A stretch of 61,363 bases of DNA. Source: Escherichia coli. GTDB lineage: Bacteria; Pseudomonadota; Gammaproteobacteria; Enterobacterales; Enterobacteriaceae. A program made the translations under genes and the position numbers. Location: assembly GCF_003334785.1 (NCBI RefSeq), contig NZ_QOWV01000020.1; one strand, written 5' to 3'. Numbering within the stretch: the stretch's first letter is position 1; every line of letters begins with the position of its first letter. Positions 11,927 through 22,527 of this stretch are shown here, piece after piece. The notes under the pieces are model-generated. The model searched no databases, was not told the origin of the DNA, and saw only the letters and a list, made by a program, of their open reading frames with translations.

Positions 11927-12002
11927 TGGCTCCTCTGACTGGACTCGAACCAGTGACATACGGATTAACAGTCCGCCGTTCTACCGACTGAACTACAGAG
12001 GA
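11927..12002 (-). tRNA. asnU: tRNA-Asn (GTT)
   Basis: Identical 76-nt tRNA-Asn sequence on the minus strand; copy name by synteny between cbl and yeeO. Confidence 0.95.
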
Positions 12003-13750: not shown

Positions 13751-13826
13751 TCCTCTGTAGTTCAGTCGGTAGAACGGCGGACTGTTAATCCGTATGTCAC
13801 TGGTTCGAGTCCAGTCAGAGGAGCCA
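13751..13826 (+). tRNA. asnW: tRNA-Asn (GTT)
   Basis: Same 76-nt tRNA-Asn sequence on the plus strand, opposite in orientation to the other three copies; followed by a hairpin and T-run at about 13889..13927. Confidence 0.95.
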
Positions 13827-15341: not shown

Positions 15342-16796
15342 TTATCGGAACGGCGGCTCATTAAAGGTTCGTAATTTACGTGAATGCAGTCGGTCGCCTT
15401 CTGCGCGCAGCAAATCGATCGCCCGAATGCCAATTTGCAGGTGTTCGGAAATAGCGCCTTCATAAAAACGGTTAGCCTGGCCGGGAAGCTTAATCTCACC
15501 ATGTAACGGTTTATCTGAAACACACAGTAGTGTCCCGTATGGCACGCGGAAACGATATCCTTGCGCGGCAATGGTTGCACTTTCCATATCAATTGCTACG
15601 GCCCGGCTTAAGTTAAAACGAAGTGCAGAAGCTGAGTAACGTAACTCCCAGTTCCTGTCATCTGTGGTTACCACCGTGCCAGTACGTAACCGCTGTTTGA
15701 CTTCTTCACCAGGCCTGCCGCTGACTAACTTGGTAGCGTCATAAAGCGCACGTTGCACTTCAGCAATGCTCGGAATAGGAATATCGGGCGGCAGAACCGC
15801 ATCAAGAACGTGGTCATCGCGTAAATAAGCGTGTGCAAGGACATAATCTCCAATGGCCTGGCTTTCACGTAATCCGCCACAGTGACCAATCATCAACCAG
15901 ACATCCGGGCGTAGCACTGCCAGATGATCGCAGATGGTTTTAGCATTGGACGGTCCCACGCCAATATTCACCAGAGTAATACCCTGACCATCAGCGGTAA
16001 TTAAATGCCATGCTGGCATCTGGTGTTTTTTCCATGCAAGGTCGGAAATGGCTTCTTCTGGCGCTTCGGTTTCGGCAGTGATCCAGTTCCCGCCAGCACA
16101 AGAAAGGGCAATGTAGGGACTATCAGGATCGAGGATCTGGCTGCATCCCCAACGAACGAACTCATCCACATAACGTGTGTAGTTGGTAAACAAGACGAAC
16201 GGCTGAAAATGTTCAACTGGCGTACCGGTATAATGGCGCAACCGCGCGAGGGAAAAATCGACGCGGCGCGCATCAAAATGCGATAGCGGGGAGAATTCCG
16301 TTGGATGATAAATGCCGTCTGCAGTTTCATCGCCGATTTGCGCCAGTTCTGTTGTCGGGAAGTAGCGAGTTAAACCAGCGCTCATTGAGCGATCAAGTGT
16401 CAATTCAGAGCCATCGATGACATAAGGATAAGGGATTTCATGCTGCGAGGGTTGCACAGAGATATGCGCACCATAATCCTGATACAGCAACGTAAGTTGT
16501 TCATTGAGATACGAACGAAAGAGAGTAGGGCGAGTAATCGTGGTGGTGTAGCTGCCTGCGTGAGTAAAACGACCAAATGCGCGCGTTTTGGGGGGATTAG
16601 TTGTGCTACCGTCCCAGGTTACGGTCAGTGATGGATAGACAAAAAGACCTTGTTTGCGGGCGTTTTCATCAGGTAATTCGCCACTTGTAATATATTTGCC
16701 AATGGCGTTGCGTAAAGCAACTACAGATTGCTCATACAGCGCGTCGAGTTTATCCAGTGCCTGAGCTGGGGTCAGACCGGAGCCCTTATTATTCAT
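15342..16796 (-). CDS. amn: AMP nucleosidase
   Basis: Start placed at ATG 16796 (MNNKGSGLTPAQALDKLDALYEQ...), giving 484 aa; the ORF track extends it to 16952. Confidence 0.88.
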   Translation of the reverse strand: MNNKGSGLTPAQALDKLDALYEQSVVALRNAIGKYITSGELPDENARKQGLFVYPSLTVTWDGSTTNPPKTRAFGRFTHAGSYTTTITRPTLFRSYLNEQLTLLYQDYGAHISVQPSQHEIPYPYVIDGSELTLDRSMSAGLTRYFPTTELAQIGDETADGIYHPTEFSPLSHFDARRVDFSLARLRHYTGTPVEHFQPFVLFTNYTRYVDEFVRWGCSQILDPDSPYIALSCAGGNWITAETEAPEEAISDLAWKKHQMPAWHLITADGQGITLVNIGVGPSNAKTICDHLAVLRPDVWLMIGHCGGLRESQAIGDYVLAHAYLRDDHVLDAVLPPDIPIPSIAEVQRALYDATKLVSGRPGEEVKQRLRTGTVVTTDDRNWELRYSASALRFNLSRAVAIDMESATIAAQGYRFRVPYGTLLCVSDKPLHGEIKLPGQANRFYEGAISEHLQIGIRAIDLLRAEGDRLHSRKLRTFNEPPFR

Positions 16797-16897
16797 GTGT
16801 GTCTCCTGTTCCATACAATTACCGCACATCCGATAGTATGTCACAGGAATGTGAAACAAAAGTATAAGGCGAAGATCGGATGATCTTCGCCAGGCTA

Positions 16898-18214
16898 TCA
16901 CGAGCGTTGATTGTCTTTCATCAATAAAGCGGTCATTGCAGAAATCAGGCATCCAGCCAGCAAATAAATGGCAACGCTATGCCAGTTCCCGGCAAAGTAA
17001 GTGATGAGTGCAGCGGCAATAAAAGGTGTAAATCCACCGCCAACCACACTGGCAACCTGATAACCGACTCCAGCACCACTGTAGCGATAACTGGCACCAA
17101 ACATTTCGGTAAACATCGGTTGTTGCACACACACCACCATGTCATGCGCAATGTTTGCCAGCATGATGGAGAAGAAAACTATCCAGAAAATGGATTGTGC
17201 TTCAAGCGCCATAAAGAAAGGAAATGCGCTCAACGTTCCGATTAACGCGCCTGTGATATAAACCCTGCGCCGACCAAAACGATCGGCAAGCCAGGCAAAA
17301 CAGGGAATTGTCAGGCAGCTTAATCCACCTACCAGCAAACCAATATTAAGGAAAAGTTCGCGCGGTAACCCCATATTCTGGGTTGAATAATTAAGTGCAA
17401 AGGCAGTAACAATGTACATCGTCAGCAACTCGCACAGTCGTAGTGCAATAATCTTCAGGAAAGCACCGGGATGTCGTAACAGAGCTTCGATAACCGGGAT
17501 GCGTTTTTTCGCGGCCGCTTGATTATGTTGCTGTTGTTCAAATTCCGCGGACTCCTCCATGCCATTGCGCACCCACAATGCTCCCAGTACCAGTACGATG
17601 CTAAACAGGAAAGGAATGCGCCAGCCCCAGCTTAAAAACTGTTCGTCAGTCGTCATCATACTGATCAATGAAACCAGTCCGGTTGAAAGCAGTAAACCTA
17701 CTCCGTAGCCAACTTGTACACCGCTACTGTAAAAGGCTTTTTTATTTTTCGGCGCACTTTCAACGGAAAGCAACGCTGCGCCTCCCCATTCGCCGCCGAC
17801 GGCAAATCCCTGAATGGCACGCAGTGTCACCAGCAAAATAGGTGCCCACCACCCAATGGTCGAGAATGAAGGAAGAATACCAATCAAGGCTGTCGCGATG
17901 CCCATCATCCAGACGGTCAGCATTAACATGCGCTTACGTCCCAGCCGGTCACCAAAGTGACCGAAAATGACACCGCCGAGCGGTCGGAAAAGGAAGCCGA
18001 CACCAAAGGTGGCAAATGCGGCGAGCGTTCCCATCGCCGGGCTTACTTGCGGGAAAAACTCGCGATTAAACACCAGTGCGGCGGTAATGCCATAGAGTAA
18101 AAAATCATACCAGTCGACGACGGCACCAGCGAAACTGCCTAACGCAGCTCGTCGGGCGCGACTTAACGAAAGCGTCCCTTCATCGGGACGAGTGGAGATG
18201 AGCGTGGAGTCCAT
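16898..18214 (-). CDS. shiA: MFS shikimate/dehydroshikimate transporter
   Basis: 438-aa 12-TM MFS protein, MDSTLISTRPDEGTLSLSRARRAALGSFAGAVVDWYDFLLYG... Confidence 0.88.
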   Translation of the reverse strand: MDSTLISTRPDEGTLSLSRARRAALGSFAGAVVDWYDFLLYGITAALVFNREFFPQVSPAMGTLAAFATFGVGFLFRPLGGVIFGHFGDRLGRKRMLMLTVWMMGIATALIGILPSFSTIGWWAPILLVTLRAIQGFAVGGEWGGAALLSVESAPKNKKAFYSSGVQVGYGVGLLLSTGLVSLISMMTTDEQFLSWGWRIPFLFSIVLVLGALWVRNGMEESAEFEQQQHNQAAAKKRIPVIEALLRHPGAFLKIIALRLCELLTMYIVTAFALNYSTQNMGLPRELFLNIGLLVGGLSCLTIPCFAWLADRFGRRRVYITGALIGTLSAFPFFMALEAQSIFWIVFFSIMLANIAHDMVVCVQQPMFTEMFGASYRYSGAGVGYQVASVVGGGFTPFIAAALITYFAGNWHSVAIYLLAGCLISAMTALLMKDNQRS

Positions 18215-18528
18215 AATGATCCTGTTTGTACTGTCTTTTTATAATTAGTATGGAAAAGGTAACTCACATTGCCGTCGATCTATAAACGAACCTTATGAGA
18301 CTACCTCGACAGAGCGCATCTGCAAATGATTTTATGGCTGATTAGCGGCAACATGAAAAATTCGATGGAAGATGAAAGCGCAGGAGTTGCTGGTGTTGTT
18401 TAAGGATTAAGCAGAGGGCCCACAGGTTCGAGATATGAAACATAAAAGTCCGCATATGCACAAAATTGTACCCTGATGATTCTGATAGACTGCATTGCAT
18501 TATAACCAGTAGGGAGGCGAGGTTAGTT

Positions 18529-19581
18529 ATGTTTTTAGTATCATTGTTGAGACATATTGCATTTAGTTACTACGATTATAAAGCTTATAATTTTAATATT
18601 GAAAAAACAGACTTTGTTGTCATACATATTCCCGATCAGATTGGCGATGCTATGGCCATCTTTCCTGTTATTCGGGCGCTTGAATTGCATAAAATTAAGC
18701 ATCTATTAATTGTTACGTCGACAATTAATTTAGAAGTCTTTAATGCGCTCAAACTTGAACAGACTAAATTAACATTAGTCACAATGACTATGCAGGATCA
18801 CGCAACATTAAAAGAAATAAAATATTTAGCGAAGAACATAACACTGCAATACGGTACGCCGGATCTTTGTATAGAGGCGATGCGTAAAAAGAACCTGAAA
18901 ACGATGATATTTATCAGTCAGTTGAAAGCAAAAACGAATTTCCAGGTCGTCGGTTTAACCATGAAGTGCTATTCCCCTTTGTGTAAGAACGCGTCCCGTA
19001 TGGATCAGAATCTCCGGGCTCCTGTACCCATGACATGGGCATTTATGATGCGTGAGGCGGGTTTTCCGGCAGTCAGGTCAATATATGAATTGCCATTAAG
19101 CGATGATGTACTCGATGAGGTACGCGAGGAAATGCGATCGTTAGGATCTTACATTGCGCTCAATTTAGAAGGTAGCTCGCAGGAACGTATATTTTCATTT
19201 TCGATTGCAGAAAATATAATAGCAAAAATTCAAAGTGAAACAGATATTCCAATAGTGATCGTTTATGGACCCAAAGGGGAAGATAAAGCCAGGGCATTAG
19301 TGGATTGTTATAATAATGTCTACCGTTTATCCTTATCACCCTCTATTAAACATTCAGCAGCAATCATAAAAGATGCTTATATTGCAATAACTCCTGACAC
19401 CTCAATATTACATATGGCAAGTGCCTATAATACCCCTGTTGTTGCAATTTATGCTGATTACAAAACGCGATGGCCCGCAATGGCCGATGTTTTGGAGTCA
19501 GTCATCGTTGGGCAAAAAATTGACAATATAAGTCTGGATGAATTCGCAAAGGCATTAAAAAGTGTTTTGGCGAGAATTTGA
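18529..19581 (+). CDS. yeeL: Putative glycosyltransferase family 9 (heptosyltransferase-like) protein
   Basis: Intact ORF. Start taken at ATG 18529, preceded by GGGAGG at 18512-18517; the ORF track starts at 18466. GDAMAIFPVIRAL resembles the N-terminal motif of ADP-heptose:LPS heptosyltransferases. Position between shiA and yeeJ matches yeeL. Confidence 0.65.
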   Translation: MFLVSLLRHIAFSYYDYKAYNFNIEKTDFVVIHIPDQIGDAMAIFPVIRALELHKIKHLLIVTSTINLEVFNALKLEQTKLTLVTMTMQDHATLKEIKYLAKNITLQYGTPDLCIEAMRKKNLKTMIFISQLKAKTNFQVVGLTMKCYSPLCKNASRMDQNLRAPVPMTWAFMMREAGFPAVRSIYELPLSDDVLDEVREEMRSLGSYIALNLEGSSQERIFSFSIAENIIAKIQSETDIPIVIVYGPKGEDKARALVDCYNNVYRLSLSPSIKHSAAIIKDAYIAITPDTSILHMASAYNTPVVAIYADYKTRWPAMADVLESVIVGQKIDNISLDEFAKALKSVLARI

Positions 19582-19836
19582 GGCAGTACTTATGCATAGT
19601 AATGCCGATCTGTTATGAACGGTGGTGTCATCAATACTCTGAGGCTGGTCAATCATCACAGAAAACCAGCCTTTGGATCAAAGCAATACTCACCGAAAAT
19701 GATCATAGTCACACCGAACGCGATTCATGCGGAACTGTTTGGTAAATAGCACCACCGGATCTTGGGGGCGCTGTGATTATTACAGTATTGCTATCACCGT
19801 CATTTTTGAATGTCACTTTACCAGTAGCATCAACGC

Positions 19837-22527
19837 CTACCCAAGAGGCCGAGTTTGAAACGAATAATCAGCCGCCGTTTTTCCTGGTGCAAAGTTGTCA
19901 TTATTCAACTGATAATACGCCCCGGTAAATCCCTGCGAAGGGAATGAAGCTGTCGGTAGGTTTGCACCATTCACTGACACTGTACCGGTCATTGGTCTGG
20001 TTTCCGCGCTAATGAATTCTATCGTGGTACTCAGGCCCGCCTGATGAACACCATTCAATACGGGGATCAGCGTTGCGATACCCTCTCCGCCTCCTGTAAC
20101 AGTAGCTTTGTAATCACCGTTGATATTTTGAGTGTAATCAATTGCGCTAATTTTCATATAGGGCACGTTTGTACCTGATTGCACAAATTCCATCCCTTCA
20201 GAAACTTTGATCGGATTGCCTGATATATCGTGCAGAACAAGATGTAGCTCAGCACTATCGGTAAAGTCCCCTTTCAGTGATGACTGGTTGTTCTTAAGGA
20301 TGGACTGCGAGGCGTCTGCTGGGCCTGCCACTAGCGATATATCTACTGTTTGCATTCCACCTGCGCTTGTGACTGTGCTTACAGTGACGCTCCCCGTTAT
20401 CGCTCCTTTCACGCTTGTTGTCGCGATTCCGTTTTGATCGGTCACAGCTGTTAATGACGTTAATGTGGTGGAGCCGTTTTTTAAGGCGAAGTACACAGTG
20501 AGACCTTCGATCAGGTTACCACTGCCATCCTCAACCGTTGCCTTTAAGGTACTTAAATCACTGTTGGTGGCGGCGATAGTCGACGGTTCAGCGATAAAGC
20601 TAGCAACATGTGCGGTGCTTGGGTTGCCAGTAACCTTCACGGTTGTCTGTGTCTGTATTGTGACGCCGTTATGGAACGATGCAGTCACCGTATATGTACC
20701 GACTTTATTGCTGGTCAGAACGACTGGAGCCTGACCTGAAGAGTTGGTTCTCACTTTTCCGCCACTTAACGTCGCACCTTCTAGCGTTACGCTAAAGTTG
20801 ATGACCTGACCCTCCACTGGAGTGCCATTTGCAGAGGTTAGCATTGCCGTCAGAGTAGCGCCTTTAGGAGCATTGACACCGATAAGCGGACTGGACGTGA
20901 GTGTCAGTTTTTCATCAATAGCCTCCAGTTGTTTCTCAAGTGAAGCTCCATTCGCTAGGGATGCTTTTACAGTATACGAGCCGTTTCTTTCAGGCGTCAT
21001 GGTGACCTCGGCTACTCCCTGCGTATTAGTAGAGACCGTATTCTGGCTGATGATCATTTGCGAGGATGGCGCTGCACTGAATGTCGCGGGTTGATGCGTC
21101 ACCGGGTTGCCAAACTGGTCGTTAACGTGAGCTTTAACTGCTATGTCTTGTGCGACCATGACCTGACCTTCAGGTATCTCCTGACTGGTAATCGTCGCAG
21201 AATTAACATCTACCTTGGCATTCAGTAATCGCGAGATGACTTCAGTAGGTTTATCTGCCAGAGAGGCTGAAACTGTTTTTAGTCCGACCTCGGTGCTTGT
21301 CACAAGAATTTCAGCGAAAACCTGATCATCCGTTTCAACGCTGGTGCTGCTTAGCGTGACGGAGGTTCCACGGAAATTAACTTTTATACCTTCTACTGGG
21401 TTGCCGTTTCCATCAGTCACTGTTGCCTGTAGCCTGGTCATTCCAATGTTATTGGCGATGAAATTGTCCTCGGTAACGTTAAGATTAACCTGCGCAGTGA
21501 GCGTATCCGCAGTAAAGTTCACCACCAACTGCTCACTCTTACCGCCAACCATCGATGCTGTCACGGTATGAGCGCCTGCTTTTGTACCTTTCAGCGTGAC
21601 TTTCGCTTTGCCATCGGCATCAGTAACCGCTTTGTCGCCATCGCTCAGCGTGAAGTTCGCCTTCACATCTTCCGGTAGAGTAAATGTTACCTCAGTGTTG
21701 GCTATCGCATTGCCCTCTGTATCAGCGACGGTGCTGTTAGTGTCGTGAGATCGTTATTGTCGGCAATCACCGGGTCCTTCGAGGCTGCCAGCGTGATTTC
21801 AGCATTCGTGACGTTCGGCACATAGTTCACTGTTTGTTGCATCGAATCGCCATTTTCGAGGGTTGCCGTCACGGGAGTTCTTCAGGCTGAAATCTTCATC
21901 CACGCCCAGCGTGATTCTTGCGGTACCGAAGCGGCTTAACCAGTCTGTCATTACCCCTGAAGCCTGAGAAGAGGCCCATCCACGTGCTATGTTTGCCGCT
22001 TGCTCGCTGTTCATATCTTCGGCGAGCAGAGATCCAATTAGCTGTGAAGTACTGGCTATCTGTTGCTCAAGGTTGCCACTGCTGTTACCCGGCGGCGGGG
22101 TTAAATTTTTTTCACTAACTTGTGCCGGGACATCCAGTTCATCACCCGGGCGGACATTACGAACAAACGTACGAAACTGGTTGAGTTTGCGTAACAGGGG
22201 GGTATCTATAATTTGTTGCACAGGACAAATATATCTAGCTTCTGTACAGAGTCTTAAATTTTGACCATAAATAAAACCGTCCCTGTCAAGCATGCATAGT
22301 TTATCAAGTAGGTCTCCCACAAACTGCCTGAATTTTATTTTTCCATTAAAAGTTTGTATCTTCTTAAGTATCACAGGAGACTGGAAATAGACCGATAGTA
22401 GGATGTTGCCACTCAAGGCATGACGATAAATATCGCTAGGAGTAATTTTTTGTTTTATGGCTTTGGTAGTGATCTCAACTGCTTCCGTTATAGTGACCCA
22501 TGTTGACATATAATGAGTTATAAGCAA
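19837..22527 (-). pseudogene. yeeJ: Inverse-autotransporter adhesin YeeJ remnant (internal deletion, frameshifts)
   Basis: ORF 21799..22527 ends with an N-terminal-like segment (...LRKLNQFRTF...GDELDVPAQVSEK...DWLSRFGTARITLGVDEDFSLKNS); ORF 19837..21666 consists of Big-type Ig-like repeats (TVTASxxxG, ATVTDGNGNP). The large beta-barrel region is missing between them. More out-of-frame C-terminal debris (...SASWVGVDATGKVTFKN...) lies at about 19640..19836. Confidence 0.7.

What the first reader, a model, noticed from the sequence alone, without database searches (positions are those of the whole stretch)
18466..19581. yeeL glycosyltransferase reading frame appears intact
The GT9-like ORF is uninterrupted over 350 or more codons and has a plausible ribosome-binding site. 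As far as I recall, yeeL is annotated as a pseudogene in K-12, so this strain may retain a functional copy of a gene lost in the laboratory strain.
Basis: partly seen in the sequence, partly recalled or inferred. Interest (0 to 1): 0.35.

Follow-up and report, generated by a model that had tools for sequence, protein, structure and literature searches.

The report
Intact yeeL glycosyltransferase gene, ordinary
This E. coli strain carries an uninterrupted copy of yeeL, a sugar-transferase gene that a single stop codon breaks in laboratory K-12, but about two thirds of E. coli genomes have it intact too, so the finding is correct and ordinary.

Summary
An open frame runs from 18466 to 19581 (+). 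The real start is almost certainly ATG 18529, behind a GGGAGG/GAGG ribosome-binding site, giving 350 aa. RefSeq already annotates this exact sequence as "glycosyltransferase family 9 protein" (WP_032179975.1). K-12 yeeL (b4497) is colinear with it and is broken only by CAA>TAA at codon 235.

That stop is a natural allele. Its exact 31-mer occurs in 768 of 5426 complete genomes (K-12, BL21 and wild isolates). The CAA 31-mer occurs in 3591. A rank-spread sample suggests about two thirds of genomes keep an intact gene. The rest are broken by other stops, a frameshift, IS1/IS5 insertions or truncation.

One caveat: intact does not mean active. This lineage's allele has 7 private missense changes against 1 synonymous. 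Two of them (T221I, R275H) fall at positions invariant among orthologues. Known gene, low interest.

The parts
18529..19581 (+). yeeL coding sequence, 350 codons plus TGA. Intact orthologue of the K-12 pseudogene b4497. Identical to RefSeq WP_032179975.1 'glycosyltransferase family 9 protein'.
18466..18528 (+). Probably 5' UTR, not coding.
   Evidence: K-12 has TGG instead of TTG. Orthologue N-termini align at the ATG 18529 Met. RefSeq start is at 18529.
18512..18522 (+). Shine-Dalgarno-like GGGAGG (18512-18517) and GAGG (18519-18522). The GAGG is 6 nt before ATG 18529.
   Evidence: read directly from the sequence
19231..19233 (+). Codon 235, CAA (Gln). This is the site of the TAA nonsense mutation that makes K-12 yeeL a pseudogene.
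18646..18648 (+). Codon for Asp40 in the motif IGDAM. Aligns with the catalytic base Asp13 of WaaC. Invariant in all 40 other rows of the 41-sequence family alignment.
   Evidence: Role of Asp13 from bioRxiv 10.1101/2021.06.16.448588.
19171..19188 (+). Codons 215-220 (G-S-S-Q-E-R), the predicted pyrophosphate loop. G215/S216 align with WaaC T187/T188, and R220 aligns with K192.
19396..19413 (+). Codons 290-295 (D-T-S-I-L-H). D290, T291 and H295 align with WaaC D261, T262 and H266 (heptose and phosphate contacts). All three are invariant in the family.
19189..19191 (+). Codon 221, ATA (Ile). A lineage-private substitution: Thr in all 18 orthologues and all 15 other E. coli alleles examined. It lies next to the phosphate-binding Arg220.
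   Evidence: The 31-mer occurs in 355 of 5426 genomes.
19351..19353 (+). Codon 275, CAT (His). A lineage-private substitution: Arg in all 18 orthologues and all 15 other E. coli alleles. His does occur in 9 of the 40 other rows of the wider family alignment.
   Evidence: The 31-mer occurs in 356 of 5426 genomes.
16898..18214 (-). shiA (shikimate transporter), the divergent upstream neighbour. The intergenic region is 314 bp.
19743..22510 (-). Degraded remnant of the inverse-autotransporter adhesin gene yeeJ, the convergent downstream neighbour. It has a large internal deletion, a lost 3' end and a frameshift.

Best explanation
Window 18529-19581 is the intact chromosomal gene yeeL. It encodes a 350-aa cytoplasmic, probably membrane-peripheral, GT-B glycosyltransferase of CAZy/Pfam family 9. 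Shown here: the frame is open; the K-12 copy differs by one nonsense codon (Q235*); the fold is that of the LPS heptosyltransferases; and the residues that in WaaC act as catalytic base and bind ADP-heptose are all present. Inferred: the enzyme takes ADP-L-glycero-D-manno-heptose in its acidic C-terminal domain (pI 4.9). Asp40 deprotonates a hydroxyl of an anionic envelope glycolipid held by the basic N-terminal domain (pI 9.4), and the enzyme transfers heptose with inversion. The most likely acceptor is a position of the LPS core, giving a non-essential, non-stoichiometric decoration. The acceptor is not that of WaaC, because WaaC's acceptor residues K7, R60 and R120 are not conserved. The gene is accessory. 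It has low GC, stands alone with no conserved partner, has a patchy distribution in Enterobacterales, is under weaker constraint than its neighbours, and has been knocked out repeatedly and independently in E. coli, K-12 and B strains included. Whether this particular allele is active is open.
Against: No biochemical or genetic characterisation of YeeL turned up in the searchable literature. The TraDIS hit was not followed up with a defined mutant. Sequence-level GT9 support is weak: Pfam E=1.3e-6 over the C-domain only. The NCBIfam heptosyltransferase I/II/III models score 34, 19 and 16 bits against cut-offs of 185, 135 and 170, so YeeL is not an orthologue of any known heptosyltransferase. 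WaaC E222 aligns with G250, although E251 and D252 are adjacent. No sigma-70-like promoter was found in the 314-bp upstream region. Omega of 0.21 is 5-20 times that of shiA (0.04) and amn (0.009) at the same dS. The window allele has 7 private missense changes against 1 synonymous, which fits neutrality (P=0.46) and departs from the gene's own omega (P=0.014). T221I and R275H hit positions invariant in 18 orthologues. The close orthologues are not in LPS loci.
Confidence: 0.55

Rival explanations
1. The frame is open but the gene is already on the way out in this lineage. The allele, shared by about 355 genomes including ST648, encodes an impaired or inactive enzyme that evolves under relaxed constraint. 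It is a pseudogene in waiting rather than a retained function.
For: Relative to 15 other E. coli alleles there are 7 private nonsynonymous changes against 1 private synonymous change (R9H, D99Y, T221I, L224F, R275H, S322L, V326I). This ratio fits neutrality (P=0.46) and is unlikely under the gene's own omega of 0.21 (P=0.014). T221 and R275 are invariant in 18 orthologues, and T221 sits next to the phosphate-binding R220. The species as a whole inactivates yeeL repeatedly by nonsense mutation, frameshift, IS1, IS5 and truncation. No upstream promoter-like site was found.
Against: All residues that map to catalytic or donor-binding positions are unchanged. In the wider family, position 275 is His in 9 of the 40 other sequences and position 221 is variable, so neither change is obviously disabling. 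The test rests on eight changes. An excess of missense changes could also reflect adaptive change. The allele has stayed open across about 355 genomes.
Confidence: 0.3
2. YeeL is a protein heptosyltransferase of the TibC/Aah (BAHT) type that glycosylates the neighbouring adhesin YeeJ.
Confidence: 0.04
3. YeeL is a GT9-fold enzyme with a different chemistry or target. It may use another nucleotide sugar, or a non-LPS acceptor such as enterobacterial common antigen, capsule, a periplasmic-glucan precursor or a small molecule.
For: The acceptor (N-terminal) domain is highly diverged and lacks WaaC's acceptor residues. The gene is not in the waa cluster, and its close orthologues have no LPS neighbours. 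It scores far below every curated heptosyltransferase model. There is an extra 28-residue N-terminal helix that WaaC lacks.
Against: The three residues that contact the heptose moiety in WaaC (K192, D261, H266) are conserved as R220, D290 and H295. Deeper relatives are embedded in LPS-core/O-antigen type loci. From my own knowledge, not checked here, nearly all characterised GT9 enzymes use ADP-heptose.
Confidence: 0.11

Closest known systems
E. coli K-12 yeeL (b4497), annotated pseudogene
   Same: Same locus between shiA and yeeJ, the same 1053-nt frame with no indels, about 96% nucleotide identity and 22 amino-acid differences.
   Different: K-12 has TAA at codon 235 where the window has CAA. 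K-12 also carries changes at positions conserved in orthologues (A117G, R157S). The window carries its own (T221I, R275H).
WaaC / WaaF (LPS heptosyltransferases I and II; PDB 2H1H, 1PSW) and the Veillonella GT9 structure 3TOV
   Different: Only 11-15% identity. WaaC's acceptor residues K7, R60 and R120 are not conserved. YeeL has an extra N-terminal helix (aa 2-15). It is encoded outside the waa cluster and is dispensable. It scores far below the curated equivalog cut-offs.
TibC / Aah autotransporter heptosyltransferases (BAHT family; PDB 4RAP)
   Same: GT9-like GT-B fold, encoded next to an adhesin gene in E. coli.
WaaQ / WaaU (heptosyltransferases III and putative IV of the K-12 core)
   Same: Accessory GT9 enzymes that add side-branch heptoses and are not essential. 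waaU is also low in GC (31%).
   Different: BLASTP similarity is limited to 44-131 residues of the C-domain (E 2e-5 and 8e-6). The genomic location differs.

Membership tests
yeeL orthologue group (K-12 b4497) | Same chromosomal position (shiA / yeeL / yeeJ) and colinear sequence | tested here: met
   same neighbours, 1053-nt gapless alignment, about 96% identity.
yeeL orthologue group (K-12 b4497) | Uninterrupted reading frame (the feature at issue) | tested here: met
   no internal stop. Codon 235 is CAA.
Glycosyltransferase family 9 (Pfam PF01075, GT-B, inverting) | Significant match to the family profile | tested here: met
   PF01075 i-Evalue 1.3e-6, but only aa 232-320. hhalign to WaaC and WaaF gives 97.3% and 97.6% probability over both domains.
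Glycosyltransferase family 9 (Pfam PF01075, GT-B, inverting) | Two-Rossmann-domain GT-B fold closest to solved GT9 structures | tested here: met
Glycosyltransferase family 9 (Pfam PF01075, GT-B, inverting) | N-terminal catalytic Asp (WaaC D13) | tested here: met
   D40, invariant in all 40 other sequences of the family alignment.
ADP-heptose-dependent heptosyltransferase | Donor-contact residues of WaaC (T187/T188, K192, E222, D261, T262, H266) | tested here: met
   The counterparts are G215/S216, R220, D290, T291 and H295. E222 aligns with G250, with E251 and D252 adjacent, so that one position is uncertain.
ADP-heptose-dependent heptosyltransferase | Demonstrated transfer of heptose from ADP-heptose | not testable with these tools
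   Needs an enzyme assay. No report was found in the literature.
LPS heptosyltransferase I / II / III equivalogs (TIGR02193, TIGR02195, TIGR02201; WaaC, WaaF, WaaQ) | Score at or above the curated NCBIfam cut-off | tested here: not met
   Scores of 34.2, 19.2 and 16.1 bits against cut-offs of 185.3, 134.6 and 170.2.
LPS heptosyltransferase I (WaaC) | Acceptor-binding residues K7, R60, R120 | tested here: not met
   These map to I34, an unaligned position and G142.
BAHT autotransporter heptosyltransferases (TibC/Aah) | Closest structural relative is TibC, and the gene is conserved next to an autotransporter substrate | tested here: not met

The most novel reading that the evidence does not exclude
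YeeL is a fifth, accessory ADP-heptose-dependent transferase of wild E. coli. It adds a non-stoichiometric sugar to the LPS core, or to another anionic envelope glycolipid. This decoration has gone unnoticed because both standard laboratory lineages, K-12 and B, carry the same Q235* allele. Its presence or absence would modulate surface-dependent traits such as motility (the ST131 TraDIS hit), phage adsorption or serum resistance. Its repeated loss in some lineages would then be adaptive rather than neutral.
Probability: 0.3. Interest if true: 0.5.

Novelty: already known. Interest (0 to 1): 0.15.

Why it matters
The finding itself adds little. The pseudogene status of K-12 yeeL and the intact 'glycosyltransferase family 9 protein' in other strains are both in RefSeq. 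The broader point is modest but real. A well-conserved, apparently catalytically competent GT9 enzyme, present in most natural E. coli, has never been characterised. One likely reason is that K-12 and B strains share a nonsense allele. If it decorates LPS, textbook core structures derived from laboratory strains would miss one modification. A repaired K-12 allele, or a deletion in ST131, would be a cheap experiment.

Tried and rejected
1. YeeJ-glycosylating enzyme (TibC/Aah-like). Rejected on the fold ranking, the lack of conserved adjacency and the opposite decay states of the two genes.

2. A conserved MFS-transporter partner. shiA is the neighbour in E. coli and Pseudocitrobacter, and an MFS gene lies upstream in Erwinia and Rosenbergiella. 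Rejected because these are three different transporters: ShiA, YdeE-like and NepI-like.

3. A phage or defence origin. PADLOC gave no hit. PHROGs has a family, phrog_27389, that matches YeeL end to end. However, tblastn against 50,697 phage records finds nothing, so that PHROG probably comes from a mis-called prophage.

4. Sequence search of the PDB gave nothing significant (best E 0.96). Only the fold search was informative.

5. Rfam scan of the window found only tRNAs and nothing near yeeL.

6. The promoter and terminator scan found no site in either intergenic flank of yeeL. The hits inside the ORF are at chance level.

7. Literature searches for yeeL returned mostly noise or uses of the K-12 pseudogene as an integration site. 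The one functional lead is the TraDIS table in PMC5425062, which was not validated individually.

8. The TTG 18466 start proposed by the ORF finder was rejected in favour of ATG 18529.

Full report
**1. What is in the sequence**

The TTG is unlikely to be the start:
- K-12 has TGG at that position.
- All 18 orthologues from other species begin at the Met that corresponds to ATG 18529.
- RefSeq annotates the 100%-identical strain E423 from that ATG, as WP_032179975.1, 'glycosyltransferase family 9 protein', 350 aa.
- GGGAGG lies at 18512-18517 and GAGG at 18519-18522, the latter 6 nt upstream of the ATG.

The gene is flanked by shiA (divergent, 16898-18214) and by a remnant of the adhesin gene yeeJ (convergent). 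Beyond that remnant lies the yersiniabactin island.

**2. Comparison with K-12**

MG1655 annotates yeeL (b4497, 2052276-2053328) as a pseudogene. The two genes align over 1053 nt without a single indel. K-12 has 22 amino-acid differences plus one nonsense codon, CAA>TAA at codon 235, which is window 19231-19233.

**3. How unusual an intact copy is**

It is not unusual. The locus is present in 5343 of 5426 complete E. coli genomes. I used exact 31-mers chosen so that every 28-base seed word spans the diagnostic base:
- The K-12 TAA allele is in 768 genomes (14%). These include K-12 derivatives, DH1, C600, BL21/BL21(DE3) and many wild isolates from humans, chickens, pigs, a dog and a pigeon.
- The CAA allele is in 3591 genomes (66%).

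The K-12 lesion is thus an old natural polymorphism, not a domestication artefact.

I then checked 15 further genomes taken at even steps down the similarity ranking. Twelve have an intact 350-codon gene. Three are pseudogenes: a stop at codon 60, Q235*, and a frameshift. In addition, 7 of the 40 rank-spread rows are visibly split by IS1 or IS5, truncated, or absent. Weighting these gives roughly 0.69 of genomes with an intact gene. One 90%-identity cluster of intact 350-aa proteins alone has 10,923 member sequences. yeeL is therefore a common gene that is repeatedly and independently lost.

**4. What the protein is**

By sequence the GT9 assignment is weak:
- Pfam PF01075 scores E=1.3e-6 over residues 232-320 only.
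- The curated NCBIfam heptosyltransferase I/II/III models score 34, 19 and 16 bits against cut-offs of 185, 135 and 170.
- A sequence search of the PDB finds nothing significant.

Foldseek agrees. Profile-profile alignment to WaaC and WaaF spans both domains at 97.3% and 97.6% probability.

I mapped the functionally assigned WaaC residues onto YeeL. Their roles are taken from bioRxiv 10.1101/2021.06.16.448588, and the mapping is:

| WaaC residue | Role | YeeL residue |
|---|---|---|
| Asp13 | catalytic base | D40 |
| Thr187/Thr188 | pyrophosphate | G215/S216 |
| Lys192 | pyrophosphate and heptose | R220 |
| Asp261 | heptose | D290 |
| Thr262 | phosphate | T291 |
| His266 | heptose | H295 |
| Glu222 | ribose | G250 (E251 and D252 adjacent) |
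| K7, R60, R120 | acceptor | I34, unaligned, G142 (no counterpart) |

D40, D290, T291 and H295 are invariant, and R220 is nearly invariant, across the 41-sequence family. The donor site therefore looks like an ADP-heptose site, and the acceptor is something other than Kdo2-lipid A.

The N-terminal domain is basic (pI 9.4, against 9.8 for WaaC) and the C-terminal domain is acidic. This fits an anionic glycolipid acceptor. YeeL also has a 28-residue N-terminal extension with a predicted helix (aa 2-15) that WaaC lacks.

**5. Context and family**

The family is small. An exhaustive phmmer search of 1.84 billion representatives gives 446 hits at E<=1e-3, but only about 20 full-length relatives at 25-37% identity.

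Close orthologues (52-70% identity) occur in E. albertii, Pseudocitrobacter, an unnamed enterobacterium, Erwinia and Rosenbergiella. They are always single genes, and their neighbourhoods are unrelated:
- shiA-yeeL-mtfA in Pseudocitrobacter;
- hchA-yeeL-mtfA-shiA in a 70%-identity Escherichia variant;
- between a tonB-like gene and yciA in E. albertii;
- between maeB and the eut operon in another genome;
- downstream of two different MFS efflux genes in Erwinia and Rosenbergiella.

Adjacency to yeeJ is thus specific to E. coli. This, together with the fold ranking, argues against a TibC-like adhesin glycosyltransferase.

More distant relatives (33-35% identity) do sit in LPS-core/O-antigen type clusters. 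Their neighbours include a second GT9, GT2 and GT4 enzymes, a kinase-like protein, WaaL-like Wzy_C proteins, WecG and Bac_transf. yeeL has 37.8% GC against 50% for shiA and amn, which resembles outer-core waa genes such as waaU at 31%.

The only functional lead in the literature I could search is a TraDIS screen in ST131 strain EC958. Insertions in yeeL (EC958_2299) were enriched in the hypermotile pool, logFC 7.46 (PMC5425062). That gene was not followed up. Other papers use the K-12 pseudogene as a neutral integration site. The YeeJ paper mentions neither yeeL nor glycosylation.

**6. Is this copy functional?**

That is not shown, and there is a specific reason for caution.
- Among intact E. 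coli alleles, dN/dS is about 0.21. The gene is constrained, but 5-20 times less than its neighbours at the same dS (shiA 0.04, amn 0.009).
- Relative to 15 other E. coli alleles, the window allele has seven private missense changes and one private synonymous change: R9H, D99Y, T221I, L224F, R275H, S322L and V326I.
- That ratio fits neutral evolution (P=0.46) but is unlikely under the gene's own omega (P=0.014).
- T221, next to the phosphate-binding R220, and R275 are invariant in all 18 orthologues and in all 15 other E. coli alleles.
- In the wider family, however, position 275 is often His and position 221 is variable. Neither change touches a mapped catalytic residue.
- The two variant 31-mers occur together in about 355 genomes, including ST648 strains, so this is a lineage allele and not a sequencing error.
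- The consensus scan finds no sigma-70-like promoter in the 314-bp upstream region.

I put the chance that this allele is impaired at about 0.3.

**7. Verdict**

The finding is already in the databases and describes the majority state of the species. It is a known gene of unknown function. The most interesting reading the evidence still allows is that YeeL adds an LPS or envelope decoration that has been overlooked because K-12 and B strains share the same nonsense allele. I give that about 0.3.

Noticed in passing
window 19743-22510 (- strand): The adhesin gene yeeJ next to yeeL is heavily degraded. Only three blocks of K-12 yeeJ survive: window 19797-21427, 21398-21871 and 21873-22195. About 3.7 kb is deleted internally, the 3' end is lost, and the 5' side abuts the yersiniabactin island. 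RefSeq calls it a frameshifted, incomplete pseudogene plus a short beta-domain ORF. K-12 shows the opposite pattern, with yeeJ intact and yeeL broken.
   Followed up: partly
window about 23201-53150, with tRNA-Asn at 53301-53376: A complete yersiniabactin high-pathogenicity island (fyuA, ybtE/T/U, irp1, irp2, ybtA/P/Q/X/S) is inserted at asnT. Its integrase is annotated as frameshifted in the identical strain E423, so the island is probably immobilised.
   Followed up: partly
window 18529-19581: PHROGs contains a family (phrog_27389, function unknown) that matches YeeL end to end (E 1e-222). Yet tblastn finds no YeeL homologue in 50,697 phage records. The PHROG probably derives from a chromosomal region mis-called as a prophage.
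   Followed up: yes
window 18529-19581 compared with 15342-18214: yeeL has 37.8% GC, whereas the adjacent shiA and amn have 50%. Its dN/dS (about 0.21) is 5-20 times theirs at the same dS. This is a compositional and evolutionary island one gene long.
   Followed up: partly
E. coli genomes in general (K-12 L001:4032): The K-12 Q235* allele is shared with BL21 and B strains and with wild isolates (768 of 5426 genomes). Other genomes carry independent lesions: a stop at codon 60, a frameshift, and IS1 and IS5 insertions. Shigella sonnei proteins in the database are partial. This points to recurrent loss of one gene.
   Followed up: partly
L031:3750-7059 and L032:5307-8980: Distant YeeL relatives (33-35% identity) lie in LPS-core/O-antigen-like clusters. 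In L031 two GT9 genes flank a GT2 gene and sit next to two Wzy_C (WaaL-like) genes. The source organisms were not identified.
   Followed up: no
window 9518-9593, 11927-12002, 13751-13826, 53301-53376: There are four identical tRNA-Asn(GTT) genes in the window, which is the usual E. coli asnT/U/V/W arrangement. One of them serves as the island's insertion site.
   Followed up: no
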